DNA from: Trypanosoma brucei
Lineage: Eukaryota
Length of the DNA: 64,000 bases
Direction: 5' to 3'
Assembly: GCA_000002445.1 (NCBI GenBank)
Contig: CP000069.1
Location: 1,472,001 to 1,536,000, forward strand
Part shown: positions 3,077 to 51,907 of the stretch, piece after piece
Layout of the letters: each line of letters begins with the position of its first letter
Position numbering within the stretch: position 1 is the first letter of the stretch
Made by a program: the position numbers and the translations under genes
Notes under the pieces: model-generated
The model's database searches: none
What the model saw: the letters and a program-made list of their open reading frames with translations, nothing else
Told to the model about the DNA's origin: nothing

Positions 3077-3092
3077 GTGTTAAAATTTATCA
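3077..3092 (-). promoter_or_regulatory. VSG 3' UTR 16-mer-like element (GTGTTAAAATTTATCA on plus, 1 mismatch to the reverse complement of TGATATATTTTAACAC)
   Basis: Motif lies ~100 nt downstream of the VSG stop at 3188. Confidence 0.6.
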
Positions 3093-3187
3093 TATTTCTA
3101 AAAAAATTAGCAAATTTTCTCAAAGTAGAAAATTTCATATATTTATAAAATTGGGCAAAAATCCTTTAGAAATAACTCTTAAAAGTT

Positions 3188-10244: not shown

Positions 10245-12114
10245 ATTATCCTCTCTTTTTCACCTTCTCTTGAGTAGCTGTTGCCTTGGCCTTGCAAAAT
10301 AGAGGAGGAAGTTCTTAGCGTTGGTATTTCAGTGAACATTCGTTGATGGAAACTTGACTGATTGCCCACATGCGAGGTAACTTTGCTAGTAGTTGGGGCA
10401 GCTTTGTTCATGTCTGTGGTTTCCGGTGGTTACACCTGCAGCGCTACAGCTAATAAAGGCGGTAGTAGAAGAGTACATTCTAGCAGCTCGTTCTGTGTAC
10501 TGTTGCGCGGGTGTAAGGCTCCGTCCAACCAGGCATTTCTAGTAGTGTTGTTACAGAAAATTTTTTTAGAATGCGCTTGGCTATGCTGTTCTTAGGCTGG
10601 ACGTTCATGGAGTTCCATGGTTGTTGTTCACCGGTGTTCGGGTTACAGGCGACAAGCCACCTTTGCATTCGGTTTTCCTAGCAAACCTTTTTGCAGTGTC
10701 GCGCCGTAAGGCGATCCTTGGTTCACGAGTTAGCTGTTCCGCTGCGTAAGACCAGGAAGGATAAATTCTCCACTGCTTTGGTTTGTTTCTCGCAGCCCTC
10801 TATTTTTTTCCTGCTTCAGCTACGATAGGAATCTCTTTTTTTTTTCACAAAGGCCTGTCCTGTTTAAGTTACGCCTGTATTCTGCTTCAGAAGGTCCATG
10901 GTGTTTTGGTTTAGGCTGTGTTCCGGTGTACTTAGAGCGTCCGCATAGTGCTTGATGATTTTGGCTATGATTGGTTCGCATACGCACGATGAAGTGCATT
11001 CGTTGTTTTTGTTCGTAGAAGAATGTGCCTTTTCCATTATTTTAGAGTAGAATAGAAACGAAATTGTAAGTGTTGAGTGTCACTTCATCTTTTTTTCATG
11101 GTTTTTTTTGTTTAGGGGAAGAGGTGAGTAACTTTTGGAGAGTCCATTGGAAACTTCTCTGTGCTTTGCCCCTTCTGCGTTAAGGATAAAGACTGTCCAT
11201 TGAAAATATTAACCTAGACAGTGCGTGTAGGCAGAGAAGTGTCGTGTCTTCCAGCTTAGGTGACCTTTCTGCGATACCTTGGTATTTCTCATTGTATTTT
11301 GTGGTTTAGTTTTCTTTTTTTTGTGAGGTGCCCTGTCATGGCGGGAAGAAGGCAAATTTTTCTGCTGCATTTATAAATGAAGGTGCTATAGCGGTTACAC
11401 CGCCGTCAGTTCCTCTGAGTTGTGCTTGTATAAGACTTATCGTGAGCTGGTGTGACGTAATCTATACGATAACTACAGTTGAAGTAAACTTCAACTTTTT
11501 GGCGGATGTTTTGCCACATACGAAGCCGATGTGTTTGCCAGGTAATCTGCCGCCGTCATCGGCTATCGACGGAGATGATTGCTGTAAAATCTCTATGTGT
11601 CTCTTTGATGGTTTCTTCTGCTGTGATAAAGCGACCGTCGTACATTTTTGCTGTCCTGCAACTTCTTTGTTTGCTTTCCTTAAATTTTCATAACAATTCT
11701 TCATTACCAAGTATGCTCAAACGAAGCTATTGCGCAGGTCAGTGTTGAGTTCGTGCCAGAAAATGGTTTGTTGCCAGGTGTGTTTGCCGAGGCATGGATC
11801 AGCAGGAGGAGATTGTATTTGATAAATCCTGACACTTGTCGGCTCTGGTCTGCGTAGTCAATCGTTTTTACTCGTCAACCCTGTTTTGTGTTGTTTATTT
11901 TTGTTTATATTAACCTTCGAGCATATTTTTAGTTGCGTGTGCTCCATATAGTTTTTCTGATGTTCTAACAGAGCCATAAAAATCGGAACAATCTCCTTTG
12001 CATCAATTTAATCGCCTTTTCAACTCATAAATTAAAACACGTTACCCGTATCTCCTTCCACACAGTAAAGTAAAACCCCACATTCATTTGATAAACCGTT
12101 ACTCACTTGATGGA

Positions 12115-12340
12115 TGACACTGCTGATGGCACACTGGCACGTGCCAAGGGACCGACAAATGAAAAACGGTGTCCCAGCAAGACGCTGCTGATCCCTGTGC
12201 TGTATGATGCCGTAGCCGGAACAAAGCAGTGTTCCCTATGAGAGGAACTCTGCTGGCTCTTGGCTTCCCCCGATGATACGGGGTACTGGACCCTGGCACC
12301 ACGTTGAGGTGGCCGGCATCGCCAGGGTACTCACTTGATT
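12115..12340 (-). mobile_element. ingi/RIME 5'-terminal fragment (~226 bp), same orientation as and abutting the A-tail of the adjacent ingi
   Basis: Bases 12115-12340 align to the 5' end of both ingi copies (17385-17610 and 49457-49681). Example: ...GGCACCACGTTGAGGTGGCCGGCATCGCCAGGGTACTCACTTGAT. All three 5' ends terminate at the same nucleotide. Confidence 0.6.
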
Positions 12341-13500: not shown

Positions 13501-15942
13501 CTAAGGTGGTGTAGTAGTCGGGCTGGCACTGCGAATTTGGAGGCACAGATGGTACAATGAAGCACCTGCGGTCTCATCGGGACTCGTGTGCTCGATGGTA
13601 GAGGAACGATCGCCACCACTGGAGGGGGCTCCGGGGGGGATGTCCACTGCGGGTGTTGCATCGCCGTATTTGATCCTCCGGAGGGCATCAGCTCGCACAA
13701 AGCCATGTTTGTTTACCATATGCGTTACAGCACTCGAGCGGCATTGGTATGTGGCATCACATTCCGTACATTTGGTCGGTTCGGAGGTTCTTTGAAGAGT
13801 GCGTGTCGCAACAGGTGGGGCCGTTTGTATTGTTGGCCCTATCGCTGCATGTTGCGGGTTGCACCATCGGCACTGTGGAGGCACACTCGGGTTGATCTTT
13901 CGCAACATCCATCCATAGTGTCTTGAAGACCCAACCCGAAAGCGTGCCAGTGCTGTTTCTTCTTCCCTCGTCAGTTCTTCCTTATGTTTTGTTGGAAAGT
14001 GGTTGCCCGTGATACCAAACCTATGAGTGTTCTCATGGACTTCTTCCGACCTAAGCACTCGCTTCGCATAAGCAATGATGTCGGGGATCCATGTGTCTCG
14101 CAACTGTGGTAAATCTGCGGCCTTTTTGGCCATTTCATCGCAAACCTCATTCCGTTTCATGCCACAATGGCCAAACACAAATTGCAGTCGGATACACACC
14201 TTTCTTCTCTGAACTTGAAGCAGAAGCCTCCATAGTCGTCTTAGAATTGGGTCCGTTACGGCTAGGGGGCCTGTCTGCAGTGCTGTTAACATTGACAGCG
14301 AGTCAGAGAAGATGGACAACCTGCTCGGTGTGCTTCTGTATGCCGGAAGCCATTTCAGCAGCCTTTGCAGTCCTATCTCTAATGCTACGCATTCCGCTCT
14401 GTAACTGCATGAGAGTTCCCCTGCTCCTGTCTTGGGTGCGCAAATCAGCGTGTTGTTTCTGTAGAGCAGGGCAGCTGCTCCGGACTTCTCACCGAGGGAC
14501 ATGGATCCATCAGTCCACAATTCGTAGTGCTCTCGCCGCGGTGGCTCCTTCCCCCTCCGTGCAAAATGCCGTTCAATCCACTTTTCGGAAGCCTCCCTTT
14601 TGACATCGTCAGGGTCATCAGCGCACACAGGCTTTATCTGCGTGTGAAATATCGGTCGGCAGCTGTGGCGGAGCGTCGATGTCTCTAGTGGGTGCTCGCG
14701 TGGCTCAATGCGGAGGTGGGGGTAGGACCGCATGATGCGGGAATGTAGGACTCTGACTGGATGTTTGCTGTGGTATACTTCTTCAGCACTGCGCCGTAAA
14801 CATCCGCCTCGTGACTCACACATCAGCATGAATTTCATGCTGCGCACAAGAGTGGTCGTCTTGAGTGGCAGGAGGTTTGCTTCCAGCAGAGAGTCCTCTT
14901 TGCGCGTCCCATGCGGTATGCAAGCTATGATGCGACTGGCTTTGTGTTGTGCTGCTGCAAGGAGGTCGCGACTTCGTTCCGAAGTGTCCCAGTACCATAC
15001 CTCAATGCCATACATGGTGTGTGCCTGTACGAGTGCTAGATAAAAAGCTCTCAGTACTTGTCTTCTTGGCTCCCATGTAGAAGCTGAGATGGCTGCTATC
15101 TGCAGTAGTCGGAAGTCCATCTTGCGTCTCGTTTCTGCAGCATGTGTTGCCATCCCCTGCAGACACTGGAATGTTACTCCTAGAAGCTTCGGTGTCCTGT
15201 CAGCTCCTATTCTTTTGCCGTCCAGTTGTAATGTAAGGGGGTGGCGCTCTATAAACCCGAAGAGTGTGCACATTGTTTTCGCTACATTGACAGACATGAA
15301 GTACTCTTTTGACCACTGTAACACCACGGTTAGGCCGCATTGTAGTGTGTGGTTGATGACATCCCTCTCTGTGTGCCTCGCAAGTAGCGTCAGGTTGTCT
15401 GCAAAGAATCCGTGCTGCAGTAACGGCACTTCTGCAAGGCATTGGCTCAACGAGTTCATGACAATAATGAACATGATTGGACCAAGGACAGTTCCTTGTG
15501 GCACTCCTCGCTCAAATGTTCTGCTTCTGGAGAGCTTCTCCTTGAATCTCACTCTGCCAGTTCGGTTACTCAGAAATGATACGCACCACTTCACAATGTG
15601 GGGTGATACCTTCATTCTGTGCATTTCCCTCGCAATTTTGTCGTGGTCTACTGTATCAAATGCCTTCTCGTAGTCGACGAATACAGCACCCGTACGATAT
15701 TGGTGCGTGGGGCGGCAGAGGGCAGCGCGGACGTGCAGGAGTTGTTCGAGCGTTGAGCATCCGGGGCGAAAGCCTGATTGCTGCGGCGTCAGCTGGAACT
15801 CAACAGTGTCTCTAAGCCTCGTGGCAAATATGCGCTCCATGACTTTGCAGAGACAGCTCGTGAGCGTCACAGGCCTGTAAGAATCGAGGTCCTCCGCCTT
15901 TTTCCGGCCTTCAGGATGGGGATGATAACACCAGTCTTCCAT
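13501..15942 (-). CDS. ingi ORF segment: reverse transcriptase plus RNase H-like region (813 aa)
   Basis: RT motifs (..YRPVTLTSCLCKVMERI.., ..FADNLTLLA..) in a ~2.4 kb ORF adjacent to the endonuclease ORF. Confidence 0.75.
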   Translation of the reverse strand: MEDWCYHPHPEGRKKAEDLDSYRPVTLTSCLCKVMERIFATRLRDTVEFQLTPQQSGFRPGCSTLEQLLHVRAALCRPTHQYRTGAVFVDYEKAFDTVDHDKIAREMHRMKVSPHIVKWCVSFLSNRTGRVRFKEKLSRSRTFERGVPQGTVLGPIMFIIVMNSLSQCLAEVPLLQHGFFADNLTLLARHTERDVINHTLQCGLTVVLQWSKEYFMSVNVAKTMCTLFGFIERHPLTLQLDGKRIGADRTPKLLGVTFQCLQGMATHAAETRRKMDFRLLQIAAISASTWEPRRQVLRAFYLALVQAHTMYGIEVWYWDTSERSRDLLAAAQHKASRIIACIPHGTRKEDSLLEANLLPLKTTTLVRSMKFMLMCESRGGCLRRSAEEVYHSKHPVRVLHSRIMRSYPHLRIEPREHPLETSTLRHSCRPIFHTQIKPVCADDPDDVKREASEKWIERHFARRGKEPPRREHYELWTDGSMSLGEKSGAAALLYRNNTLICAPKTGAGELSCSYRAECVALEIGLQRLLKWLPAYRSTPSRLSIFSDSLSMLTALQTGPLAVTDPILRRLWRLLLQVQRRKVCIRLQFVFGHCGMKRNEVCDEMAKKAADLPQLRDTWIPDIIAYAKRVLRSEEVHENTHRFGITGNHFPTKHKEELTREEETALARFRVGSSRHYGWMLRKINPSVPPQCRWCNPQHAAIGPTIQTAPPVATRTLQRTSEPTKCTECDATYQCRSSAVTHMVNKHGFVRADALRRIKYGDATPAVDIPPGAPSSGGDRSSTIEHTSPDETAGASLYHLCLQIRSASPTTTPP

Positions 15943-17090
15943 GCAGGCGGCACGACTCCCGTTCGTAGGCTCTCATTGAATAGCCTCACAACAACATTCA
16001 GCGCTGTTCTGCCGAGATGTTGCAGTGCCTCGTTGTATAAGCAATCAGGTCCGGCTGCGGATCCACTAGGTAGCAGTTTGATCGATCTCCGTAGTTCAGC
16101 CATCGTGATGGGACTGAACTCACTCGCTATCGTCTTTATTGGTGCCGGTGGGTGTGAGTCGGGGTGCCTTCTTGCGCGGGAAGAGTACAGTTTACTGAAC
16201 CTCTCAGCTTGACGGTAGTCCGTGATGGCCGCGTTATCAACAAGTACAGCCGGTGTGGTTAGTGGTCGTGGCGCATATACCTTCTTGACAATGTGCCAAC
16301 TGCAGCGGTCTGACACCGCAAGTCTGGAGCATAGCGTGCTCCATCTCTTCTTTGTGGTACGGTCCAGGATCTGCTTACGCGTGGCTACCAACTTTTCCCT
16401 TCGGTGGGAGGGTCCGCATCCAGCGATCTCTTCATCGAGTTTCGCGAGCTCAGGTGTCCAATGTGGTGGCGTTGCTCTGCAGCCACGGGGGACGGAGACC
16501 TTCGTCGCAATGCGGATGGCGGAGCTCAATTTCTGTTCCAGGGTCTTGACGTTCTTCTCTCTACCAATTTTCCTGCAGAGCTCGTCAACCTTGAGACGGA
16601 AATTCCTCCAGTCAGCTTTTAGCCATGCGTACATGGGCTTTCGAAGCCGCGGGCAGCTCAGTGCATCTGTGTCGTCTCCAAAGATAACGTCGAAAAATAT
16701 GTGATGGTGATCGCTATCGGGAGAATACAGCGATGTCCACGTGTACACTGTGCAATTCCTTGACAGTGTCACATCAGGGGTGGACTCCCCGTGGTGGCGC
16801 GCGTACCTGGTGCACTCACCAGTGTTGCAGACCAGAAACTGGTTGTCAATGCACCACTGTGTGAGGGTTTCACCCTTGGTATTTGGTGGGCTCGCGCGAT
16901 CCCATGCCAACGCGTGTGCGTTAGCGTCTGCACCGATGAGCTGGGCACCGTCAGTCGTCAGAAGCGTATCTAGGTCAGTTGCCGTGAAGGTGTGTTTTGG
17001 TGGGATGTATGCCGACGTGACAGTCAGCGCCGTTCCACGTGCAAGGTGAATTGTTGCATGCACTTTTTCAATGCGACCAACAACGGCCAT
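15867..17090 (-). CDS. ingi ORF segment: apurinic/apyrimidinic-like endonuclease domain (407 aa)
   Basis: LINE-type endonuclease-like sequence. Overlaps the RT ORF in another frame at 15867-15942, which marks a frameshift in the ingi ORF. Confidence 0.6.
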   Translation of the reverse strand: MAVVGRIEKVHATIHLARGTALTVTSAYIPPKHTFTATDLDTLLTTDGAQLIGADANAHALAWDRASPPNTKGETLTQWCIDNQFLVCNTGECTRYARHHGESTPDVTLSRNCTVYTWTSLYSPDSDHHHIFFDVIFGDDTDALSCPRLRKPMYAWLKADWRNFRLKVDELCRKIGREKNVKTLEQKLSSAIRIATKVSVPRGCRATPPHWTPELAKLDEEIAGCGPSHRREKLVATRKQILDRTTKKRWSTLCSRLAVSDRCSWHIVKKVYAPRPLTTPAVLVDNAAITDYRQAERFSKLYSSRARRHPDSHPPAPIKTIASEFSPITMAELRRSIKLLPSGSAAGPDCLYNEALQHLGRTALNVVVRLFNESLRTGVVPPAWKTGVIIPILKAGKRRRTSILTGL

Positions 17091-18094
17091 ACCGGTCTCG
17101 ACTGGTATGTCCTCTCACTAGTATTGATACACCTCATCCTTTGCAGTTACGAGCTATTCCGTGATGTTGGTAGCCAGCAACGCTAAAGCAAGCCGCCTCT
17201 CCAGGCGTCATCCTTGTCTCGCTCAACAGACAAAAGGCGATCCGCTCATCAACAAGGGTTTTGTGGAGTGCTAATCTCTTTCCTTGAGATAGCCCGGCGC
17301 AGTTCCACTGCATCCCGTGAAACGACAGGCAGGGATTCTCTTCCACATCACCGGACAGCAGCATCTTAGTGCGGATGATATACTGCTGATGGCACGCTGG
17401 CACGTGCTCAGGGACCGACAAATGAAAAACGGTGTCCCAGCAAGACGCTGCTGATCCCTGTGCTGTATGATGCCGTAGCCGGAGCACAGCAGTGTTCCCT
17501 ATGAAAGGAACGCTGCTGGCTCTTGGCTTCCCCTGATGATACGGGGTACTGGACCCTGGCACCACGTTGAGGTGGCCGGCATCGCCAGGGTACTCACTTG
17601 ATCTCAACCCTCCGCATTTAAGTCGGCCACCATATTTCAAACTATATGTTACACCATTTCTTACGCAGCATCTATTCACTTATATTTGACATAGGAAGCA
17701 CAAACCACCCCGTATTATTTCTTTCTGTGCCGCTTTGAGCTTTTGCGTGTCCATTTGTTTCTTTCTGTATCTTCTTCCCTATTTTTGTCAACTGCATCAC
17801 TCGCTTTGAGTAACACAGAGACTCTATTTGACATGTAACAACTAATTCTGTCTCTAACCACTATATTTCTTCACCTTCTCAATGTGCATCATGGTACTCA
17901 TCACCATGTTTATGTACGAAAATGTTCGTATTCCCTATTCTTTTTCTTTTGTATCTCTTATTTTCCTTCAATAACATCAAACGTGCTCACAGTCTGTCTT
18001 ATTACTTCTTCTACTCACTCATTTACTCAAATTATGCCATTGCAATTATTTTAAACTCCTTATTTTGGGGGTTATTTCAGCTGGCAGCCCTCTT

Positions 18095-18215
18095 ATTTTA
18101 ATATTCGTATACACACTCACAACACTATCCTAGTATTATCATTATTGGCATTTCTATATTATTATTAACACTACTTCTACTATAGCCCTAACTGATAGCG
18201 ACAGAATAACGAAAT
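18095..18215 (-). repeat. 70-bp repeat
   Basis: TAATATTCGTATACACACTCACAACACTATCC..ATTATTATTAACACTAC..CCCTAACTGATAGCG. Duplicated at 50165-50290. Confidence 0.7.
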
Positions 18216-18343
18216 AATCAAAATTATTGTACTAATCATTTTTGACGCCCTTTCATCCTACTACGTTATGTCCACATGCCACTATTATACACATTTTAGT
18301 ATAAGTTTAACTATTTTTCTCACTTTTAAAAGGTTTTTAAAAA

Positions 18344-18359
18344 CTGTTAAAATATAGAA
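18344..18359 (-). promoter_or_regulatory. VSG 3' UTR 16-mer-like element (CTGTTAAAATATAGAA)
   Basis: Downstream of the VSG fragment stop at 18611. Confidence 0.4.
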
Positions 18360-18610
18360 ATTTTTGTCAATTTCTATCAAATTCTTTCAAAATATCAGCG
18401 TGTCATTGTATTTTATAAAATTCATGACGTTCGATAAAATTGAGCATATATCCTTATAGTTCTACAAAAACCCACAAAAAAGCAGTAATCAGGGCAATTT
18501 TTTTTTTTATCTAGAGGAAAACTAGTAGAGCGGTACTTGCCTTCCATCCATCCAAAAACAGCTTCTTTCTGGCGGAATGTCACCTTTTACTGGTCCTTTG
18601 GCTTCCTTAC

Positions 18611-19225
18611 TTAATGTGCACTTTTCTTCTCATCTTTTTCTTCGGGGTTCCATTTGCATGGGGGAGTGCATTCCGTCTCTTTGTCTTTCTTATTGCAATT
18701 TTTTTCGGCTTCTTCTTGTTTGGCCTCAATGCCTTGAAGTGGTGTCTGCTGCATTGTTGGTGCGAGAACTGTAGCAGCATATCGGGCAAAGGTATATGCC
18801 TGTTCTGCTTGGCTGACAAGCTGCTTCTGTTGGGCTTCTAGTAACTTGAGGTGTGCCGCTGTGCCGGTTGCGTTGTCTACCAGGTCTGCCGCCTGGTCCA
18901 GGTTAGACAGCCATGTGATTCCTTTGCCGCTTGTTGCAATGGCGTCTGTATAGTCGATACACAGTGTTGCCGCTGCTCCGGTGCTGGTGCTGCCGCTTGT
19001 TTCGCCTAGTATTAATGGTTTGTCGTAGTAAGTGTCTGTTGCCGTTGAAATATTATAGTTTGTGAGTTTTTCGATCATTTCTGTCGCTGCTGGCGCCGGT
19101 ACGTTGCTGATCCGCTTGGTCCTCGCTTTGTACAACAGGTAGATATCGCAAAGCGCCTTGAATTCTCGTATGTTGCCGTTGGTGGTTGCACCGCCTCGTT
19201 CGAATGCCATTGCCGCTAAAAACAA
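18611..19225 (-). pseudogene. VSG 3' fragment: C-terminal half of the N-domain plus C-terminal domain, no GPI signal, 5'-truncated
   Basis: ORF 204 aa ending ..CNKKDKETECTPPCKWNPEEKDEKKSAH*. An in-frame stop lies immediately upstream of the first Met, and there is no signal peptide. Confidence 0.65.
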
Positions 19226-20739
19226 GAGAGCAGTTGGTATACCTAGAATCTCGTCTCAGCTTATGCTGTTGCTGAAAGAAGATCCTTTTGAAGGTTTGGA
19301 AAGGAATATTGCTTGCCTTGCGAAGGTATTATGAGTGACGGAACAGGATTATTTTAATATTTAAGGCATGTTGTGTTTTGAACATCCCAATCTCAAGGAC
19401 TTATTGCTTTCCCAAACACTTAAGTGTTGGACTGTGAATGCAAGGTTAATGTATACGTGAGTAGATTAGTTATTTATGGGAGTTGTGTTGCTGTCAAAGT
19501 TAAACAGTGCCGTCGACATTTGCCTTGAGAGTTTCGTTGGTTTTTTTTCAAATTTGTAGGGACACAAAGAGGGATTCTTTATCCAAGTCTGTTGGTTGCA
19601 TTGCCAGAAAAAGGACACGAAACTGAATCGAAAAAAACATACTATTAATTGCAGACCGTATTTAAACGTATTTAAATTATATAAAAGCTGCTCTTCTTGC
19701 TCTGTTTTATCATTTTCTAATTTATAAATTTCAGTTTTAACTCGAAAAAAAACTATGTATGGTTAGTGCTTCCTCCGTTAATGATTGATTTTTGCTAGCG
19801 AATCCGATTATGTTCCCTCTTTTTGTTGAGATAGTTCATTAATACTGGGAAATTGTGACATTGGAAGCGCTTTCTCTGCAAATTTTGTTTTGTTTACTAG
19901 CTTCTACAGTTGAAGGTATGCGACCACTTTTATGTTAATTATACGCTCCTTGAAAGGTCTTAGTTACTTGCCAGTATACCGATATGTAATTGGAGGTGTA
20001 TATCCATTGAGCTTTTCCACCTCATAGTGTTCCTCCACTGTTTCATATATATTCTGTTTCAAGCTGTGTCCGTGTTTTTGTTTTACTTTTTCTTGCCAAC
20101 ATAATCCATTAACAGTCCTAGTGTAAAAATCCTTCTCCCTATAATACTATATTATTTTCCACAAGTGCTTGCCGCTATTACGATATCTTATTGAGATCAG
20201 ACTTCAAAATAACCTCACAATTACACAAACCTTTTATTATACCCCTGCTTCTTCAAAGCTAAAAATTATTATTCAACCTAAAATTAAAAACCAAAGTCTC
20301 TGTTATCTCTGCAGTTTCATCTATCCATGTTGGAGTTACAACGGGCAGCAGCGGTGGTTCATGCTTTGTTTCCTCCTGAACACCGCTGTTAAGTATCAGA
20401 TTTCTATCATTTCACACCGTATTTTGTTTCGTTATCTAGTTTTCACTATCACCATTTGTGCGGATAACGTAGCGACTCTGTTTATCCTGCACAATGAACT
20501 ATGTTTCTTCCTCACTCTCCATACAATCATTTTTTGTGTGCAGATTCCGGTCGTCGTGTTTGTGTCTCTGAGTACGCATATTCCATATCTTTCGCTATCA
20601 CTATCTTCCCTTAATAATATTCCCTTTGCACTTACTCACTTACTCATACTCACTCATTTATAATCACTTCATTCCTACTACTGTTCTAGGTTTCATCTAT
20701 TATGGGTTCCCTGTCGCTCAGAACTGTCACTCTTATTAT

Positions 20740-20840
20740 AATATTCGTATATATACAGACACTCACAACACTCTCCTATAAATATCATTATCATTGTTCT
20801 CGGTATATTACTAATGTCCGTAAAAGAAATAAGATAAAAA
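20740..20840 (-). repeat. 70-bp repeat
   Basis: TATAATATTCGTATATATACAGACACTCACAACACTCTCC..ATCATTATCATTG. Confidence 0.65.
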
Positions 20841-27328: not shown

Positions 27329-27413
<85 letters not shown>

Positions 27414-44435: not shown

Positions 44436-45874
44436 ACTCTACTCTGCTTGAGTATTGTTTCTAGGTCGGTTTCGTGTTGCTAGTCTTCAAACATTGTGAT
44501 AAAGTGTGCTGGTGGTTACAACAATGTAGCGGCTTAGTTGTCTTTTGCAGCAGGGGCGGTCGCTTACCTTATGGTTGCCTGCCTGCTCCTCTTGACCGGT
44601 TTGTCTCTCAAATGTATCTTTCACACATTATTTGCCGCGACTCCGACGGGTTTGTTCGATATTCTTTAGTTTTGACCTAGTGGCGATCGGTCAGTTTGCT
44701 ACGGTTTCTTGTTTTCTGTTCTTGACTCATTCCACCGCAGTATTTTTCCTTTTTCAGTTTTCCTTAGTGGTGCCGTTGGCGCTCCTTTTCCTGTCTGTAT
44801 AGGGACTCTAACGACAGGTTGTGCATGCCTTTGATAACGGTACCTTCTTATTTTTCTTTACTTCTGCATTTCCTTTTCCTCTACAAGTTTTTTGTCACTT
44901 GCGTCGCCTCATTTTGATCGGTTTTTCAGTGACTCCACTAAATAGGCTTTTTCCTCCGCCTGCTGTATATAGGTCTGTGCTTTGCATGACACTTTGTGCG
45001 TTTTCAAAAAAGCACCCACCGAGTTAGGAACGATTCTTAGGTTTAGCCGCAAAATCTTTTTGTAAACTCTTGTTATTGCTCATCCACTGTCGTTGTTTCG
45101 TCTTACTGTTTTTGATTTAGGGTCATTTGCTTGTTCGCCTATGTTATTAGGTTAGAAAAGCTGCATACGTCTTTAAATTTGTTTTAACTTTCTTCTGCTT
45201 CTCAGAAAAAGGTGGCTGCGTTTGGTATGATGAGTAATGTGCCTAATAAAATCTTTCGTGCTACTACTCTCATAGCTGTTTTGCGGTCGGTAAATAAAGA
45301 AAATTCGTAAAATTCGAAGTATAAAAACATTTACACCACTTATGAGAAAAATAAATATTAGTGCGGTTTGCAGGTATAACTTAACGCTGACACGTAAAAA
45401 ACGTGCTTTGGTTGAGTAATTGTAGCTTTAAATTCCAATCCATGCCGCTATATATCTATATCAACATCTAAAACATCTATCATTTATGACCGCTATGTGC
45501 TTTTAATGTGCCTCAAATCCTGCCGCCATGATACATCTTCAACGTAGATATAACACTGACACTTCGTCTGTATACATGGTTTTGAGCATTTCGTATTCTT
45601 ATCTTGTATGAGTACCGGTCTCTCCTGTTTCTTTATCAGCAATAGTAGTCTTAAATGCACTCTACTTTCTTGAAATATCTTAACACATACCATCAATTTA
45701 GTGTCACTGTCTATTATAATGAATTATCCGTGTCTTAAATAGGTTTAACTTCTTACCATTGAATCATTATGGGAGAGAACGGTATCATTTTAAACTTTCT
45801 GTACTTCATAAAGCACTTCTGCGGCCCTCCACCTGCCGTTTCTCATCATTAAGTTGTTCCTTCTGATTTTAACA

Positions 45875-48013
45875 CTAGATAGCGGAATATCCTGTTGGTA
45901 TTGTTGGCCCTATCGCTGCATGTTGCGGGTTGCACCATCGGCACTGTGGAGGCACACTCGGGTTGATCTTTCGCAACATCCATCCATAGTGTCTTGAAGA
46001 CACAACCCGAAAGCGTGCCCGTGCCGTTTCTTCTTCCCTCGTCAGTTCTTCTTTATGTTTTGTTGGAAAGTGGTTGCCCGTGATACCAAACCTATGAGTG
46101 TTCTCATGGACTTCTTCCGACCTAAGCACTCGCTTCGCATAAGCAATGATGTCGGGGATCCATGTGTCTCGCAACTGTGGTAAATCTGCGGCCTTTTTGG
46201 CCATTTCATCGCAAACCTCATTCCGTTTCATGCCACAATGGCCAAACACAAATTGCAGTCGGATACACACCTTTCTTCTCTGAACTTGAAGCAGAAGCCT
46301 CCATAGTCGTCTTAGAATTGGGTCCGTTACGGCTAGGGGGCCTGTCTGCAGTGCTGTTAACATTGACAGCGAGTCAGAGAAGATGGACAACCTGCTCGGT
46401 GTGCTTCTGTATGCCGGAAGCCATTTCAGCAGCCTTTGCAGTCCTATCTCTAATGCTACGCATTCCGCTCTGTAACTGCATGAGAGTTCCCCTGCTCCAG
46501 TTTTGGGTGCACAAATCAGCGTGTTGCTTCTGTAGAGCAGGGCAGCTGCTCCGGACTTCTCACCGAGGGACATGGGTCCATCAGTCCACAATTCGTAGTG
46601 CTCTCGCCGCGGTGGCTCCTTCCCCCTCCGTGCAAAATGCCGTTCAATCCACTTTTCGGAAGCCTCCCTTTTGACATCGTCAGGGTCATCAGCGCACACA
46701 GGCTTTATCTGCGTGTGAAATATCGGTCGGCAGCTGTGGCGGAGCGTCGATGTCTCTAGTGGGTGCTCGCGTGGCTCAATGTGGAGGTGGGGATAGGACC
46801 GCATGATGCGGGAATGTAGGACTCTGACTGGATGTTTGCTGTGGTATACTTCTTCAGCACTGCGCCGTAAACATCCGCCTCGTGACTCACACATCAGCAT
46901 GAATTTCATGCTGCGCACAAGAGTGGTCGTCTTGAGTGGCAGGAGGTTTGCTTCCAGCAGAGAGTTCTCTTTGAGCTTCCCATGTTGTATGCCGGCTATG
47001 ATGCGACTGGCTTTGTGTTGTGCTGCTGCAAGGAGGTCGCGACTTCGTTCCGAAGCGTCCCAGTACCATACCTCAATGCCATACATGGTGTGTGCCTGTA
47101 CGAGTGCTAGATAAAAAGCTCTCAGTACTTGTCTTCTTGGCTCCCATGTAGAAGCTGAGATGGCTGCTATCTGCAGTAGTCTAAAATCCATCTTGCGTCT
47201 CGTTTCTGCAGCATGTGTTGCCATCCCCTGCAGACACTGGAATGTTACTCCTAGAAGCTTCGGTGTCCTGCCAGCTCCTATTCTTTTGCCGTCCAGTTGT
47301 AATGTAAGGGGGTGGCGCTCTATACACCCGAAGAGTGTGCACATTGTTTTCGCTACATTGACAGACATGAAGTACTCTTTTGACCACTGTAACACCACGG
47401 TTAGGCCGCATTGTAGTGTGTGGTTGATGGCATCCCTCTCTGTGTGCCTCGCAAGTAGCGTCAGGTTGTCTGCAAAGAATCCGTGCTGCAGTAACGGCAC
47501 TTCTGCAAGGCATTGGCTCAACGAGTTCATGACAATAATGAACATGATTGGACCAAGGACAGTTCCTTGTGGCACTCCTCGCTCAAATGTTCTGCTTCTG
47601 GAGAGCTTCTCCTTGAATCTCACTCTGCCAGTTCGGTTACTCAGAAATGATACGCACCACTTCACAATGTGGGGTGATACCTTCATTCTGTGCATTTCCC
47701 TCGCAATTTTGTCGTGGTCTACTGTATCAAATGCCTTCTCGTAGTCGACGAATACAGCACCCGTACGATATTGGTGCGTGGGGCGGCAGAGGGCAGCGCG
47801 GACGTGCAGGAGTTGTTCGAGCGTTGAGCATCCGGGGCGAAAGCCTGATTGCTGCGGCGTCAGCTGGGACTCAACAGTGTCTCTAAGCCTCGCGGCAATT
47901 ATGCGTTCCATGACTTTGCAGAGACAGCTCGTGAGCGTCACAGGCCTGTAAGAATCGAGGTCCTCCGCCTTTTTCCGGCCTTCAGGATGGGGATGATAAC
48001 ACCAGTCTTCCAT
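45875..48013 (-). CDS. ingi reverse transcriptase ORF (712 aa), copy 2, with 3' end replaced by unrelated sequence
   Basis: Aligns with the 13501-15942 ORF. Diverges at ~45900. Confidence 0.7.
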   Translation of the reverse strand: MEDWCYHPHPEGRKKAEDLDSYRPVTLTSCLCKVMERIIAARLRDTVESQLTPQQSGFRPGCSTLEQLLHVRAALCRPTHQYRTGAVFVDYEKAFDTVDHDKIAREMHRMKVSPHIVKWCVSFLSNRTGRVRFKEKLSRSRTFERGVPQGTVLGPIMFIIVMNSLSQCLAEVPLLQHGFFADNLTLLARHTERDAINHTLQCGLTVVLQWSKEYFMSVNVAKTMCTLFGCIERHPLTLQLDGKRIGAGRTPKLLGVTFQCLQGMATHAAETRRKMDFRLLQIAAISASTWEPRRQVLRAFYLALVQAHTMYGIEVWYWDASERSRDLLAAAQHKASRIIAGIQHGKLKENSLLEANLLPLKTTTLVRSMKFMLMCESRGGCLRRSAEEVYHSKHPVRVLHSRIMRSYPHLHIEPREHPLETSTLRHSCRPIFHTQIKPVCADDPDDVKREASEKWIERHFARRGKEPPRREHYELWTDGPMSLGEKSGAAALLYRSNTLICAPKTGAGELSCSYRAECVALEIGLQRLLKWLPAYRSTPSRLSIFSDSLSMLTALQTGPLAVTDPILRRLWRLLLQVQRRKVCIRLQFVFGHCGMKRNEVCDEMAKKAADLPQLRDTWIPDIIAYAKRVLRSEEVHENTHRFGITGNHFPTKHKEELTREEETARARFRVVSSRHYGWMLRKINPSVPPQCRWCNPQHAAIGPTIPTGYSAI

Positions 48014-49681
48014 GCAGGCGGCACGACTCCCGTTCGTAGGCTCTCATTGAATAGCCTCACAACAACATTCAGCGCTGTTCTGCCGAGATGTTGCAGTGCC
48101 TCGTTGTATAAGCAATCAGGTCCGGCTGCGGATCCACTAGGTAGCAGTTTGATCGATCTCCGTAGTTCAGCCATCGTGATGGGACTGAACTCACTCGCTA
48201 TCGTCTTTATTGGTGCCGGTGGGTGTGAGTCGGGGTGCCTTCTTGCGCGGGAAGAGTACAGTTTACTGAACCTCTCAGCTTGACGGTAGTCCGTGATGGC
48301 CGCGTTATCAACAAGTACAGCCGGTGTGGTTAGTGGTCGTGGCGCATATACCTTCTTGACAATGTGCCAACTGCAGCGGTCTGACACCGCAAGTCTGGAG
48401 CATAGCGTGCTCCATCTCTTCTTTGTGGTACGGTCCAGGATCTGCTTACGCGTGGCTACCAACTTTTCCCTTCGGTGGGAGGGTCCGCATCCAGCGATCT
48501 CTTCATCGAGTTTCGCGAGCTCAGGTGTCCAATGTGGTGGCGTTGCTCTGCAGCCACGGGGGACGGAGACCTTCGTCGCAATGCGGATGGCGGAGCTCAA
48601 TTTCTGTTCCAGGGTGTTGACATTCTTCTCTCTACCAATTTTCCTGCAGAGCTCGTCAACCTTGAGACGGAAATTCCTCCAGTCAGCTTTTAGCCATGCG
48701 TACATGGGCTTTCGAAGCCGCGGGCAGCTCAGTGCATCTGTGTCGTCTCCAAAGATAACGTCGAAAAATATGTGATGGTGATCGCTATCGGGAGAATACA
48801 GCGATGTCCACGTGTACACTGTGCAATTCCTTGACAGTGTCACATCAGGGGTGGACTCCCCGTGGTGGCGCGCGTACCTGGTGCACTCACCAGTGTTGCA
48901 GACCAGAAACTGGTTGTCAATGCACCACTGTGTGAGGGTTTCACCCTTGGTATTTGGTGGGCTCGCGCGATCCCATGCCAACGCGTGTGCGTTAGCGTCT
49001 GCACCGATGAGCTGGGCACCGTCAGTCGTCAGAAGCGTATCTAGGTCAGTTGCCGTGAAGGTGTGTTTTGGTGGGATGTATGCCGACGTGACAGTCAGCG
49101 CCGTTCCACGTGCAAGGTGAATTGTTGCATGCACTTGTTCAATGCGACCAACAACGGCCATACCGGTCTCGACTGGTATGTCCTCTCACTAGTATTGATA
49201 CACCACCTCCTTTGCAGTTACGAGCTATTCCGTGATGTTGGTAGCCAGCAACGCTAAAGCAAGCCGCCTCTCCAGGCGTCATCCTTGTCTCGCTCAACAG
49301 ACAAAAGGCGATCCGCTCATCAACAAGGGTTTTGTGGAGTGCTAATCTCTTTCCTTGAGATAGTCCGGCGCAGTTCCACTGCATCCCGTGAAACGACAGG
49401 CAGGGATTCTCTTCCACATCACCGGACAGCAGCATCTTAGTGCGGATGATATACTGCTGATGGCACGCTGGCACGTGCTCAGGGACCGACAAATGAAAAA
49501 CGGTGTCCCAGCAAGACGCTGCTGATCCCTGTGCTGTATGATGCCGTAGCCGGAGCACAGCAGTGTTCCCTATGAAAGGAACGCTGCTGGCTCTTGGCTT
49601 CCCCCGATGATACGGGGTACTGGACCCTGGCACCACGTTGAGGTGGCCGGCATCGCCAGGGTACTCACTTGATCTCAACCC
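45900..49681 (-). mobile_element. ingi: ingi retrotransposon, 3'-truncated copy (~3.8 kb), part of the segmental duplication shared with 13829-17610
   Basis: Near-identical to ingi copy 1 from its 5' end (49681) down to ~45900. RT ORF at 45875-48013 and endonuclease ORF at 47938-49161, with the same frame overlap as copy 1. Confidence 0.85.
47938..49161 (-). CDS. ingi endonuclease-domain ORF (407 aa), copy 2
   Basis: Differs from the 15867-17090 ORF by only a few residues. Confidence 0.6.
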   Translation of the reverse strand: MAVVGRIEQVHATIHLARGTALTVTSAYIPPKHTFTATDLDTLLTTDGAQLIGADANAHALAWDRASPPNTKGETLTQWCIDNQFLVCNTGECTRYARHHGESTPDVTLSRNCTVYTWTSLYSPDSDHHHIFFDVIFGDDTDALSCPRLRKPMYAWLKADWRNFRLKVDELCRKIGREKNVNTLEQKLSSAIRIATKVSVPRGCRATPPHWTPELAKLDEEIAGCGPSHRREKLVATRKQILDRTTKKRWSTLCSRLAVSDRCSWHIVKKVYAPRPLTTPAVLVDNAAITDYRQAERFSKLYSSRARRHPDSHPPAPIKTIASEFSPITMAELRRSIKLLPSGSAAGPDCLYNEALQHLGRTALNVVVRLFNESLRTGVVPPAWKTGVIIPILKAGKRRRTSILTGL

Positions 49682-50164
49682 TCCGCATTTAAGTCGGCCA
49701 CCATATTTCAAACTATATGTTACACCATTTCTTACGCAGCATCTATTCACTTATATTTGACATAGGAAGCACAAACCACCCCGTATTATTTCTTTCTGTG
49801 CCGCTTTGAGCTTTTGCGTGTCCATTTGTTTCTTTCTGTATCTTCTTCCCTATTTTTGTCAACTGCATCACTCGCTTTGAGTAACACAGAGACTCTATTT
49901 GACATGTAACAACTAATTCTGTCTCTAACCACTATATTTCTTCACCTTCTCAATGTGCATCATGGTACTCATCACCATGTTTATGTACGAAAATGTTCGT
50001 ATTCCCTATTCTTTTTCTTTTGTATCTCTTATTTTCCTTCAATAACATCAAACGTGCTCACAGTCTGTCTTATTACTTCTTCTACTCACTCATTTACTCA
50101 AATTATGCCATTGCAATTATTTTAAACTCCTTATTTTGGGGGTTATTTCAGCTGGCAGCCCTCT

Positions 50165-50290
50165 TATTTTAATATTCGTATACACACTCACAACACTATC
50201 CTAGTATTATCATTATTGGCATTTCTATATTATTATTAACACTACTTCTACTATAGCCCTAACTGATAGCGACAGAATAACGAAATAATC
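50165..50290 (-). repeat. 70-bp repeat (duplicate of 18095-18215)
   Basis: Identical sequence, offset ~32072 bp. Confidence 0.7.
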
Positions 50291-50415
50291 AAAATTATTG
50301 TACTAATCATTTTTGACGCCCTTTCATCCTACTACGTTATGTCCACATGCCACTATTATACACATTTTAGTATAAGTTTAACTATTTTTCTCACTTTTAA
50401 AAGGTTTTTAAAAAC

Positions 50416-50431
50416 TGTTAAAATATAGAAA
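50416..50431 (-). promoter_or_regulatory. VSG 3' UTR 16-mer-like element (CTGTTAAAATATAGAA), duplicate of 18344-18359
   Basis: Within the duplicated segment. Confidence 0.4.
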
Positions 50432-50681
50432 TTTTTGTCAATTTCTATCAAATTCTTTCAAAATATCAGCGTGTCATTGTATTTTATAAAATTCATGACG
50501 TTCGATAAAATTGAGCATATATCCTTATAGTTCTACAAAAACCCACAAAAAAGCAGTAATCAGGGCAATTTTTTTTTTTATCTAGAAGAAAACTAGTAGA
50601 GCGGTACTTGCCTTCCATCCATCCAAAAACAGCTTCTTTCTGGCGGAATGTCACCTTTTACTGGTCCTTTGGCTTCCTTAC

Positions 50682-51907
50682 TTAATGTGCACTTTTCTTC
50701 TCATTATTTGATTCGGCGTTCCACTTGCATGGCGGTTTACAATCTGTTTCCTTGTCTAACTTATTGCACTCTGCTTCTTTGGAGTCGATTGTTTCTTGGG
50801 TTTGGCGCTTGGGATGTTTGATAGTTTCTGCTCCATGTGCTACGGTTATGGTGGCTATGTCCAGAGTGTCGCATAACTGCCACGCTTGAACCTCTGCTGC
50901 TTTCAGTTGGGCATGCATTTTGGCTAGCTCGGTTCTTATGGTATATGCCTTTTTGAGTTCTTTCGTTGCTTGGAGCATGTTTTCGACCCATTTTACTTTG
51001 TGGAATGTTCCTGTTCCCACTGCAGCCATGTAATCAACACAAGTGGCTGAGATGGTGCCACCTAGGCCGTGCCGCCCGCTGTTGTCGTTGTCTGTGAAGG
51101 CTTTGTTGACGAGTGAGGATTCTACTTGGGTTACCGCCGCCATGAGTAGCTCTAGCGTGACAGTTTTTGCGTCGGTGGTGGGCTTAAATTTTGTTACAAT
51201 GGCCTTATACGCGCTGACTCCAGCGGCCGCGTCGCTTCCTGTTCCATAGTTGGCTCTGTTCTCGCCTTCTACGCAGATTCCGTTGCTTGTGCTTGCCGTG
51301 CCGCAAACACATGCAAGCGCTTTGGCTAGATTTTGCGCCGCCGGTTTTACCCTGCCGCCGCTGTTGCATGCGTTGTCTCCGGTGTCGAAAGTCTGTTCGG
51401 CTGCTGTGTTAGCCGCCGCGTCGCCGAAAACCGCTGCTTTTCATAATTTTTTGGCATTTTATTTTAAGTTTTGAAACTCCTTTTGTTGGCCGGCTGCTTG
51501 CTCTGCTGTAACCGCCGTTGAGTTGTACAGCCTTTCTAAAGCAGTGTGTGCTGCCCGCTTCCCTGGGCTTTCCGGAGGCCTTTTGTAAATTTCCGATTTG
51601 TCACTGTTCGTTTCGGTTTTTATTGTATCTTTGATTGCTGTAAATTCTGTGTCGGTTGTGAAGATGCCAAAAGTTTTATTATTGTAGTGTTCGTCTGGTA
51701 TTGTTGCCGCGTACAGTGCCCTCACAGCTGTCGGTACCTCGCCATTCGCATCCTGGGTATTGAATTCCGCCGCGTCGATGCTGCCTGTTGCTGCCTGATA
51801 TGCTGCACAAAGAGCTTCGTACTGTTACGCATTTTCTCGCTTCGAGTGTGACACTGAAGTCAAAGCTGCTAGTGCGGTTAGTAGACTTGCTATTAGTGGC
51901 CGCATTG
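50682..51907 (-). pseudogene. VSG pseudogene. Signal peptide is followed by an in-frame stop; frameshifts; C-terminus KKSAH* with no GPI signal.
   Basis: Minus frame from 51907: MRPLIASLLTALAALTSVSHSKRENA*. ORFs 51459-51725 and 50682-51143 end ..CNKLDKETDCKPPCKWNAESNNEKKSAH*. Confidence 0.65.

What the first reader, a model, noticed from the sequence alone, without database searches (positions are those of the whole stretch)
13829..18625. ~4.8 kb segmental duplication (13829-18625 vs 45900-50697) carrying ingi, a 70-bp repeat and the last codons of a VSG
The two segments are collinear at a constant offset of ~32071 bp with only scattered SNPs or indels. Examples: the RT ORFs read IFATRL/IIAARL, and a homopolymer length differs. 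The right-hand boundary falls inside the final ~5 codons of the VSG CDS (..KKSAH* is conserved in both). Upstream of that the two VSGs are only ~70% similar. This is the position where 3' boundaries of VSG gene conversions are known to fall. The left-hand boundary is inside the ingi RT region. Copy 2's ingi is 3'-truncated there, while copy 1 keeps the full ingi but has a 5'-truncated VSG. Each copy therefore retains something the other lacks. This suggests duplication of an ancestral ingi plus full VSG unit followed by independent deletions, or conversion junctions using ingi as one homology anchor.
Basis: seen in the sequence. Interest (0 to 1): 0.6.

Follow-up and report, generated by a model that had tools for sequence, protein, structure and literature searches.

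The report
Copied ingi-bearing spacer between VSG pseudogenes
In a Trypanosoma brucei surface-antigen (VSG) gene array, a 4.8-kb stretch (the tail of one VSG pseudogene, one 70-bp repeat and three-quarters of a dead ingi retrotransposon) has been copied as DNA to a second site 32 kb away, which is an ordinary by-product of the recombination that reshuffles these arrays.

Summary
The duplication is real. 13823-18697 matches 45894-50768 at a constant offset of 32071, with 54 substitutions and no gaps. The near-identical core is 13827-18633 (99.2%).

All genes are on the minus strand. Read that way, the block holds:
- the last ~60 ancestral codons of a b-type VSG (frameshifted, hence the shared ..KKSAH*) and its 3' UTR;
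- one 70-bp repeat and a 487-bp spacer;
- a 12-bp ingi target-site duplication;
- the first 3764 bp of a dead ingi.

Copy 1 holds the whole 5251-bp ingi with its target-site duplication on both sides. Copy 2 stops inside ingi and joins unique DNA with no ingi similarity. A 3'-truncated ingi with an identical 5' flank and shared frameshifts cannot be a separate retrotransposition, so this is a DNA-level ectopic copy.

One end is a homology-type junction in the VSG C-terminal-domain coding region. The other is an illegitimate junction inside ingi.

The two adjacent VSGs are different genes (37% amino-acid identity). Three details were wrong: there is no indel, the VSGs are not ~70% similar, and the copy-1 VSG is internally deleted rather than 5'-truncated.

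This is known biology and of low interest.

The parts
13827..18633 (-). Copy 1 of the near-identical duplicated core (4807 bp)
   Evidence: offset 32071, 37 substitutions, 0 gaps vs 45898-50704.
45898..50704 (-). Copy 2 of the duplicated core
18634..18697 (-). Homeologous transition zone of copy 1. It is 75% identical, in register, to 50705-50768 and encodes the start of the VSG C-terminal domain (CNKKDKETECTPPCKWNPEE). The right (gene-upstream) junction lies at its edge.
   Evidence: Pfam Trypan_glycop_C profile 1-34 matches here.
50705..50768 (-). Homeologous transition zone of copy 2 (CNKLDKETDCKPPCKWNAES)
18454..18633 (-). Shared 3' remnant of a VSG CDS inside the block. A 1-nt frameshift in the A-run gives the premature stop TAA at 18611-18613 (..EKKSAH*). 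The ancestral reading continues KKCTLSKEAKGPVKG..., with further frameshifts, to a hydrophobic tail ..IALITAFLWVFVEL* ending ~18454. The copy 2 equivalent is 50525-50704.
   Evidence: Intact relatives P0012 and P0013 read CxW....KKCxL. Pfam CTD match on the repaired reading.
18344..18359 (-). Degenerate copy of the conserved VSG 3'-UTR 16-mer (TTCTATATTTTAACAG, 3 mismatches). The copy 2 equivalent is 50415-50430.
   Evidence: 11 matches in the window vs 1.0 expected. All but one are on the minus strand, downstream of VSG ORFs.
18090..18167 (-). Single 70-bp repeat (TAA/TGA-rich part followed by GGATAGTGTTGTGAGTGTGTATACGAATATTAAAATAAGAG). The copy 2 equivalent is 50161-50238.
17603..18089 (-). 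Unique purine-rich spacer between the 70-bp repeat and the ingi insertion site. It is identical in both copies. The copy 2 equivalent is 49674-50160.
   Evidence: The only mismatch in the whole non-ingi flank is at 18516.
17591..17602 (-). 12-bp ingi target-site duplication ATCAAGTGAGTA, 5' copy. It is carried along into copy 2 at 49662-49673.
   Evidence: 4 exact copies in the window, 0.01 expected. A 12-bp TSD is the Tbingi norm (PMC3820030).
12340..17590 (-). Full-length (5251 bp) but degenerate ingi of copy 1, with an A6 tail. The duplicated part is ingi positions 1-3764 (17590 to 13827).
   Evidence: Pfam RVT_1, RNase_H and Exo_endo_phos_2. 95.8% identity to a T. b. equiperdum ingi over 5260 aligned positions. 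Frame breaks at about aa 68, 156, 561, 1315 and 1455 of an intact ingi ORF.
45898..49661 (-). 3'-truncated ingi of copy 2 (positions 1-3764). It has the same three frame breaks as copy 1.
45890..45898 (-). Left (gene-downstream) illegitimate junction of copy 2: ..GGGCCAACAATAC|CAACAGGATATTCC... Copy 1 reads ..CAATAC|AAACGGCCCC... At most an AAC / imperfect 5-6 nt microhomology is present.
44436..45893 (-). Unique DNA beyond the junction, upstream of the B-type VSG pseudogene that starts at 44435. It is not part of the duplication and has no ingi, DIRE or 70-bp repeat similarity.
   Evidence: Pfam VSG_B for 43632-44435.
12328..12339 (-). Second copy of the same TSD, directly after the ingi A6 tail
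12112..12327 (-). 216-bp ingi/RIME 5' fragment in tandem with the ingi. It is 94-95% identical to the ingi 5' end and has no 3' half or poly(A).
12100..12111 (-). Third copy of the same TSD, closing the tandem pair
18611..19255 (-). VSG fragment next to copy 1. It has about 215 codons and no ATG. VSG_B profile positions 2-68 are joined to 280-349, so it is internally deleted. Only its last 7 codons lie in the block.
50682..51905 (-). VSG pseudogene next to copy 2. It spans the full-length B-type N-terminal domain (profile 2-351) and has three in-frame stops (51827, 51461, 51443). Its nearest database relatives are 65-71% identical.

Best explanation
This is a non-reciprocal, DNA-level ectopic copy (gene conversion or templated repair synthesis) within one T. 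brucei subtelomeric VSG array.

The copy-1 arrangement is where the ingi originally inserted. The ingi landed about 0.5 kb downstream of a 70-bp repeat, between two VSG cassettes, and then decayed. That arrangement, or an identical third locus, served as template.

**Inferred mechanism**
1. A break occurred downstream of the copy-2 VSG.
2. The broken end paired with the template through the conserved VSG C-terminal-domain / 3'-UTR sequence. This produced the homology-type junction at 18633/50704.
3. Synthesis ran gene-downstream through the 3' UTR, the 70-bp repeat, the spacer, the target-site duplication and 3.76 kb of ingi.
4. The new strand was then joined without homology to the other broken end. 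The join was probably microhomology-mediated, because T. brucei lacks NHEJ. This produced the ingi|unique junction at 45898/45893.

**Consequences**
- The copy-2 VSG acquired a foreign, already frameshifted 3' end.
- The VSG at 44435 acquired a new upstream 70-bp repeat plus a dead ingi stump.

**Shown:** the DNA-level copy, the nature of the two junctions, and that the ingi was a passenger, already dead when copied.

**Inferred:** the direction of transfer, the break-and-repair pathway, and that it was a single event.
For: 1. **Collinear identity includes unique DNA.** There is 1 substitution in 1031 bp outside ingi and no indel in 4.8 kb.
2. **Copy 2 carries the same 5' TSD and the same ingi frame breaks** at about aa 68, 156 and 561. 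It lacks the ingi 3' end. Target-primed reverse transcription yields 5'-truncated elements, not 3'-truncated ones (established knowledge). Copy 2 is therefore not an independent insertion.
3. **Only copy 1 has the TSD on both sides of a full 5251-bp ingi**. The insertion therefore happened in that context.
4. **The right junction is homology-type.** It abuts a 64-bp, 75%-identical, in-register stretch of C-terminal-domain coding sequence. Each copy's stretch is the other's best match in the window. VSG recombination junctions are known to lie in the C-terminal-domain coding region or the 3' UTR (PMC4155160).
5. **The left junction is illegitimate.** The 1458 bp beyond it are unique, with no ingi or DIRE similarity.
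6. **The repair pathways fit.** HR and microhomology-mediated joining are the repair routes found in T. brucei, with no evidence for NHEJ (PMC2377438).
7. **The flanking genes differ on both sides**, and nothing else within the 32 kb is duplicated. This excludes a tandem duplication.
8. **The phenomenon is documented.** Ectopic conversions that copy blocks within VSG arrays, and rearrangements at ingi/RIME, are described (PMC3467770, PMC2854126).
Against: - The pre-event sequence of the recipient site is not available. Microhomology at the left junction (at most AAC, or an imperfect 5-6 nt) therefore cannot be established.
- The direction rests on TSD completeness alone.
- Polarised substitutions are split evenly (17 in copy 1, 18 in copy 2). 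They say nothing about donor and recipient, and they allow a third, unseen donor.
- Divergence is uneven: 36 substitutions in 3776 bp of ingi against 1 in 1031 bp of flank (Fisher p=0.002). It is also strongly clustered, which a single clean event plus uniform decay does not predict. After collapsing clusters, the ingi-versus-flank contrast is no longer significant (p=0.09).
- No reads were available to verify the assembly.
Confidence: 0.62

Rival explanations
1. An older and larger segmental duplication covered several cassettes. Only this 4.8-kb remnant survives. The upstream VSG in one copy was later replaced by a canonical cassette conversion ending in the C-terminal domain. The ingi 3' part and everything downstream were later deleted or replaced in copy 2.
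For: - A conversion that replaced the upstream VSG would leave exactly the observed boundary in the C-terminal-domain coding region (PMC4155160).
- The arrays are highly recombinogenic (PMC3467770).
- Weakly collinear repeats lie upstream of both copies: 23020-23674 vs 52371-53101, plus the 70-bp repeats.
- The uneven divergence could reflect a mosaic of ages.
Against: - It needs at least three events instead of one.
- No homology resumes beyond either boundary within the 13.8 kb to the left and 13.2 kb to the right that the window allows.
- The collinear upstream repeats are a three-member family at 80-87% identity, also present at 56464-57059. They are not paralogous flanks.
- The neighbouring VSGs are of different types.
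Confidence: 0.22
2. It is an assembly artefact. A repeat-induced misjoin or a duplicated contig end placed one real segment twice.
For: - Ingi is a multi-copy repeat family (60 members in the RT protein cluster), and subtelomeric arrays are hard to assemble.
- No read data could be examined here.
- The clustered substitutions inside ingi could in principle be polishing errors.
Against: - The copies differ by 37 substitutions with no indels.
- Both ends of copy 2 join unique sequence cleanly.
- A misjoin would be expected at a repeat boundary, not at ingi position 3764 joined to unique DNA.
- The derived states are mostly private rather than family consensus. This is the opposite of what mis-polishing toward other ingi copies would give.
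Confidence: 0.05
3. The similarity is ordinary dispersed-repeat similarity from two independent ingi retrotranspositions, or from an RNA-mediated copy (5' transduction).
For: Ingi shows relative site specificity and re-uses target sites (PMC3820030).
Against: - 1031 bp of non-ingi flank are 99.9% identical.
- The copies share the same TSD, the same frame breaks and a 3' truncation with no poly(A) at the junction.
- A different ingi copy, from T. b. equiperdum, is only ~96% identical to these copies, whereas they are 99.0% identical to each other.
- The right end fades through a homeologous zone, as a recombination junction does. It is not a TSD-flanked insertion.
Confidence: 0.01

Closest known systems
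Ectopic gene conversion / block duplication within T. brucei subtelomeric VSG arrays (Marcello & Barry 2007, as summarised in PMC3467770)
   Same: It is a non-reciprocal DNA copy between sites of the silent VSG archive. It is in direct orientation, carries pseudogene material, and has a junction in conserved VSG 3' sequence.
   Different: The copied unit holds no VSG body. It is the inter-cassette segment: VSG tail, 3' UTR, 70-bp repeat, spacer and an ingi stump.
Canonical VSG duplicative transposition cassette (upstream junction in 70-bp repeats, downstream junction in the C-terminal-domain coding region or 3' UTR; PMC4155160)
   Same: It uses the same 3' homology region of VSGs as a junction.
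   Different: The polarity is reversed. The block starts where a cassette ends. The 70-bp repeat is internal to the tract and is not a boundary. The second junction has no homology.
Tbingi/TbRIME non-LTR retroposons, 12-bp TSD and tandem re-insertion at one site (Bringaud et al. 2004, as cited in PMC3820030)
   Same: Copy 1 is a textbook insertion: 5251 bp, a 12-bp TSD and an A tail. It sits in tandem with a second, short element, separated by the same TSD.
   Different: Copy 2 did not arise by retrotransposition. The short tandem element lacks the RIME 3' half and poly(A).
Coupled homologous / end-joining repair of one double-strand break (e.g. Richardson & Jasin 2000 in mammalian cells; cited from my own knowledge, not tested here). 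In T. brucei the joining step would be microhomology-mediated (PMC2377438).
   Same: The copied tract has one homologous junction and one illegitimate junction.
   Different: This is inferred only from the end product. No break site, intermediate or clear microhomology is documented here.

Membership tests
Tbingi non-LTR retrotransposon (copy 1 element) | Length of about 5.2 kb with endonuclease, reverse transcriptase and RNase H coding regions | tested here: met
   The element spans 17590 to 12340 (5251 bp). Pfam finds Exo_endo_phos_2, RVT_1 and RNase_H. It is 95.8% identical to a T. b. equiperdum ingi.
Tbingi non-LTR retrotransposon (copy 1 element) | 12-bp target-site duplication and a 3' A-tail | tested here: met
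   ATCAAGTGAGTA is found at 17602-17591 and 12339-12328, and an A6 tail precedes the second copy. The norm is taken from PMC3820030.
Tbingi non-LTR retrotransposon (copy 1 element) | Single uninterrupted ORF (potentially active copy) | tested here: not met
   There are at least five frame breaks relative to the intact 1656-aa ORF P0142. It is a dead copy, but still an ingi by sequence.
Independent ingi retrotransposition (copy 2 element) | Own TSD pair, a 3' end with A-tail, and truncation (if any) at the 5' end | tested here: not met
   Copy 2 is 3'-truncated at ingi position 3764. It has no A-tail and no second TSD, and its 5' flank is identical to copy 1's.
DNA-level segmental duplication / ectopic conversion | Collinear near-identity extending into unique flanks, with shared private lesions | tested here: met
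   The 1031-bp non-ingi flank is 99.9% identical. The VSG frameshift and stop are shared, and so are three ingi frame breaks.
Canonical VSG conversion cassette | Upstream boundary within the 70-bp repeats | tested here: not met
   The 70-bp repeat (18090-18167) is internal. Identity continues 0.47 kb on one side of it and 4.3 kb on the other.
Canonical VSG conversion cassette | Boundary in the VSG C-terminal-domain coding region or 3' UTR | tested here: met
   The boundary at 18633/18634 falls at about position 25-30 of the Pfam Trypan_glycop_C profile. The tract, however, extends away from the VSG body.
Homologous recombination anchored on ingi | Ingi-derived sequence on both sides of the junction in both partners | tested here: not met
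   There is no ingi or DIRE similarity in 44436-45893 by blastn (word size 7) or tblastn.
Microhomology-mediated end joining at the left junction | Short shared bases between the two parental sequences at the join | not testable with these tools
   The recipient's pre-event sequence is unknown. Only an AAC shared 1 nt past the break is visible.
B-type VSG genes (both neighbours of the block) | Pfam VSG_B N-terminal domain | tested here: met
   The copy-2 VSG matches profile positions 2-351 (E=4.5e-33). The copy-1 fragment matches 2-68 and 280-349. Both are pseudogenes.

The most novel reading that the evidence does not exclude
The block may be the footprint of a hybrid repair event, with homologous invasion at a VSG 3' end and a microhomology join inside a retroelement. 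Such an event moves VSG 3' ends and 70-bp repeats, rather than VSG bodies, between archive genes. The tightly clustered, private, GC-to-AT-biased substitutions in both copies may record mutagenic repair synthesis or short-patch conversion acting on the duplicated DNA. This would touch the old, unresolved claim that point mutations accompany VSG duplication.
Probability: 0.12. Interest if true: 0.45.

Novelty: already known. Interest (0 to 1): 0.2.

Why it matters
It gives a base-resolved example of how the silent VSG archive is remodelled.
- Recombination can swap the flanks of VSGs (3' end, 3' UTR, 70-bp repeat) as well as their bodies.
- It can spread a defective 3' end to another gene.
- It can carry a dead retrotransposon along as a passenger.

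It adds no new principle. The practical value is for annotation: copy 2's ingi should not be counted as an insertion event, and KKSAH* is not a native VSG terminus.

Tried and rejected
1. **Exact-protein look-ups.** I searched for the contig or other assemblies with four window proteins and one TREU927 relative. None is on record, so there was no independent check of the junctions and no empty-site comparison.
2. **70-bp repeat at the copy-2 junction.** I tested whether the sequence just past the junction is a remnant of the recipient's own 70-bp repeat, which would place the break there. It scores no better than shuffles (p=0.5 against the consensus, p=0.05 against the copy-1 repeat). Rejected.
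3. **DIRE or ingi remnant beyond the break.** None was found.
4. **Excess ingi divergence.**
   - A flank-versus-ingi contrast and a gradient away from the VSG end would suggest repeated conversions. The raw contrast is significant (p=0.002). After collapsing clustered substitutions into events, the contrast is p=0.09 and there is no gradient within ingi (p=0.37). This is left as a weak observation.
   - Patches imported from other ingi copies would be another source. The derived states are absent from the 6-8 other ingi proteins that cover those sites, so this is not supported. The sample is small (15 of 60 cluster members).
5. **Chimeric VSG+ingi protein query**. RT hits filled the list, so no close relative of the copy-1 VSG fragment was recovered.
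6. **Rfam scan of the window**. Nothing was found.
7. **Marcello & Barry 2007.** The paper could not be read.

Full report
**Context.** The window is a Trypanosoma brucei-group subtelomeric VSG array.
- Pfam finds A- and B-type VSG domains, plus reverse transcriptase, RNase H and endonuclease domains, in minus-strand ORFs.
- The best database relatives of an intact VSG (8781-10244) are T. brucei VSGs at 90-93% identity. The strain is therefore not TREU927, Lister 427 or EATRO1125 itself.
- The plus strand is T-rich, and all VSGs, 70-bp repeats and 3'-UTR 16-mers lie on the minus strand. I therefore describe features in the minus-strand (gene) direction, from high to low coordinates.

**The observation.** Self-BLAST gives one dominant hit: 13823-18697 vs 45894-50768, 4875 bp, 98.9% identity, 54 mismatches, no gaps, offset exactly 32071. 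Base-by-base comparison shows the following:
- The core 13827-18633 has 37 substitutions in 4807 bp.
- A 64-bp zone (18634-18697) is 75% identical in register.
- Beyond both ends the similarity is at background level.
- The 1031 bp outside ingi (17603-18633) differ at one base (18516).

IFATRL vs IIAARL is correct.

**Anatomy in the gene direction**:
1. The VSG C-terminal-domain coding region comes first. The 75% zone encodes CNK(K/L)DKET(E/D)C(T/K)PPCKWN.
2. The identical core starts at GAGAAGAAAAGTGCACATTAA (EKKSAH*). Intact relatives read ...CxW......KKCxL... (P0012, P0013). The next frame of the block reads KKCTLSKEAKGPVKG..., and the Pfam C-terminal-domain model matches that repaired reading. 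The stop therefore results from a 1-nt frameshift in an A-run.
3. The ancestral CDS continues, with further frameshifts, to a hydrophobic tail ending near 18454. The boundary is thus about 60 codons before the ancestral stop, early in the C-terminal domain, and not in the last five codons.
4. Next come a degenerate 3'-UTR 16-mer (18359-18344), one 70-bp repeat (18167-18090), a unique 487-bp spacer, and the 12-bp sequence ATCAAGTGAGTA (17602-17591).
5. An ingi follows. In copy 1 it is complete (17590 to 12340, 5251 bp, A6 tail). It is 95.8% identical to a T. b. equiperdum ingi fetched as L001.
6. The ingi is followed by the same 12-mer, then a 216-bp ingi/RIME 5' fragment, then the same 12-mer a third time. 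Four exact copies occur in the window against 0.01 expected.
7. A 12-bp TSD, and tandem elements separated by that TSD, are documented properties of Tbingi/TbRIME (PMC3820030).

**Copy 2.** Copy 2 carries the same VSG tail, UTR, 70-bp repeat, spacer and 5' TSD (49673-49662). It also carries ingi positions 1-3764, with the same frame breaks at about aa 68, 156 and 561 of an intact ingi ORF. At 45898/45893 it switches abruptly to 1458 bp of DNA that is unique in the window. This DNA has no ingi or DIRE similarity by blastn (word size 7) or tblastn and no 70-bp repeat similarity. It leads to a B-type VSG pseudogene starting at 44435.

**The neighbouring VSGs.**
- The gene next to copy 1 (19255-18611) has about 215 codons and no ATG. 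It matches VSG_B profile positions 2-68 and then 280-349, so it is internally deleted rather than 5'-truncated.
- The gene next to copy 2 (51905-50682) spans the whole B-type domain (profile 2-351) but has three in-frame stops. Its nearest database relatives are 65-71% identical.
- The two are only 37% identical as proteins over 131 aa. They are different genes that share only the transplanted tail.
- The VSGs downstream of the two copies are A-type (8781-10244) and B-type (43632-44435).

**What it is.** A 3'-truncated ingi that shares its 5' flank, TSD and frameshifts with a full-length copy cannot be a separate retrotransposition. Target-primed reverse transcription truncates 5' ends (established knowledge). 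Nothing else in the intervening 32 kb is duplicated, so it is not a tandem duplication. It is a dispersed, non-reciprocal DNA copy within the array. Because only copy 1 has the TSD on both sides of a complete element, the ingi inserted in the copy-1 context, and copy 2 is secondary (inference).

**The two ends differ in kind.**
- The VSG-side end fades through a homeologous C-terminal-domain stretch. Each copy's stretch is the other's best match in the window. This fits a homologous-recombination junction. The review literature places VSG junctions in the C-terminal-domain coding region or, more often, the 3' UTR (PMC4155160).
- The ingi-side end is illegitimate.
- T. brucei repairs chromosomal breaks by homologous recombination or microhomology-mediated joining, with no evidence for NHEJ (PMC2377438).
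- The most economical model is one-ended homologous invasion at the VSG 3' region, synthesis for about 4.8 kb, and capture of the second end by a microhomology join inside ingi. The visible microhomology is at most AAC, and it cannot be assessed without the pre-event recipient sequence.
- Block copies within VSG arrays and ingi/RIME-associated rearrangements are already described (PMC3467770, PMC2854126).

**Divergence.**
- Polarising the ingi differences with the equiperdum element assigns 17 derived changes to copy 1, 18 to copy 2 and 2 ambiguous. Both copies have therefore decayed since the split, and the substitutions do not identify a donor.
- At the protein level, the derived residues are almost all absent from the 6-8 other ingi proteins that cover those sites.
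- From the changes listed, by my count, GC-to-AT changes outnumber AT-to-GC 22:11. This fits decay of a 53%-GC element in a 34%-GC setting.
- The substitutions are strongly clustered: 15 inter-site gaps of 10 bp or less against 3.2 expected, and 7 substitutions in 29 bp at 14895-14923. None of 20,000 permutations reached either value. The clusters are true substitutions, not offset indels.
- Ingi is more diverged than the flank (36 in 3776 bp vs 1 in 1031 bp, p=0.002). After collapsing clusters into 16 events the contrast is p=0.09, and there is no gradient within ingi. I leave this unexplained. Short-patch conversion from unsampled ingi copies or multi-base repair errors are possible.
- The overall 0.77% divergence is similar to the 0.8% mean coding divergence between T. 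b. brucei and T. b. gambiense (PMC2854126). The event is probably not very recent, but subtelomeric rates are unknown.

**Rivals.**
- *Larger old duplication.* Its flanks would have been overwritten later, by a canonical cassette conversion on the VSG side and a deletion on the ingi side. This cannot be excluded, but it needs at least three events. It finds no residual homology within the 13 kb available on each side.
- *Assembly artefact.* This is unlikely given the 37 substitutions, the absence of indels and the clean unique junctions. No reads could be examined.
- *Independent insertion or an RNA-mediated copy.* This is refuted.

**Verdict.** It is a real DNA-level copy with a VSG 3' junction. 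It is not a duplicated "ingi + VSG unit", and ingi was not a homology anchor. This is an ordinary instance of known archive dynamics. Its only slightly unusual aspects are that the copied unit is the inter-cassette segment rather than a VSG cassette, and that one junction is illegitimate.

Noticed in passing
window 12100-17602 (minus strand): There is a tandem retroposon arrangement: TSD, full ingi, the same TSD, a 216-bp ingi/RIME 5' fragment, then the same TSD. The short element is 94-95% identical to the ingi 5' end, so it is a different source copy. It has no RIME 3' half and no poly(A), yet it abuts the TSD precisely. Repeated insertion at one site is documented (PMC3820030), but a tail-less 5' fragment is not explained by it.
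   Followed up: partly
window 13827-17590 vs 45898-49661: Substitutions between the two ingi copies are strongly clustered (for example 7 in 29 bp at 14895-14923, 3 in 5 bp at 15111-15115, and 4 in 39 bp at 15797-15835). They are split between both copies, are mostly private relative to other ingi proteins, and are GC-to-AT biased. The non-ingi flank has only 1 change in 1031 bp.
   Followed up: partly
window 23020-23674, 52371-53101, 56464-57059: A repeat family of about 0.65 kb (80-87% identity) is present. Two members lie roughly 450 bp upstream of the starts of B-type VSGs (22596 and 51905). The third precedes the VSG ORF at 54850-55878, which was not checked against Pfam. One member holds a 136-aa ORF (52541-52951). 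It was not characterised further.
   Followed up: no
window 21130-22596 and 20754-20775: The 488-aa B-type VSG ORF ends inside its C-terminal domain (...CEKENDG*) with no GPI signal and no 3'-UTR 16-mer. A 70-bp repeat core follows about 360 bp downstream. This is another truncated cassette junction in the same array.
   Followed up: no
locus L001 8490-8531 and 13744-13790 (T. b. equiperdum CM010675.1): The comparison ingi fetched from T. b. equiperdum shows no matching 12-bp duplication in its immediate flanks. It may be a recombinant between two elements, or its TSD may have decayed.
   Followed up: no
window 27329-27411 and 36637-36702: The TAA/TAT-rich part of two 70-bp repeat regions forms long triplet runs. 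One is a perfect (TAT)27 on the plus strand, much longer than in the single repeat inside the duplicated block.
   Followed up: no
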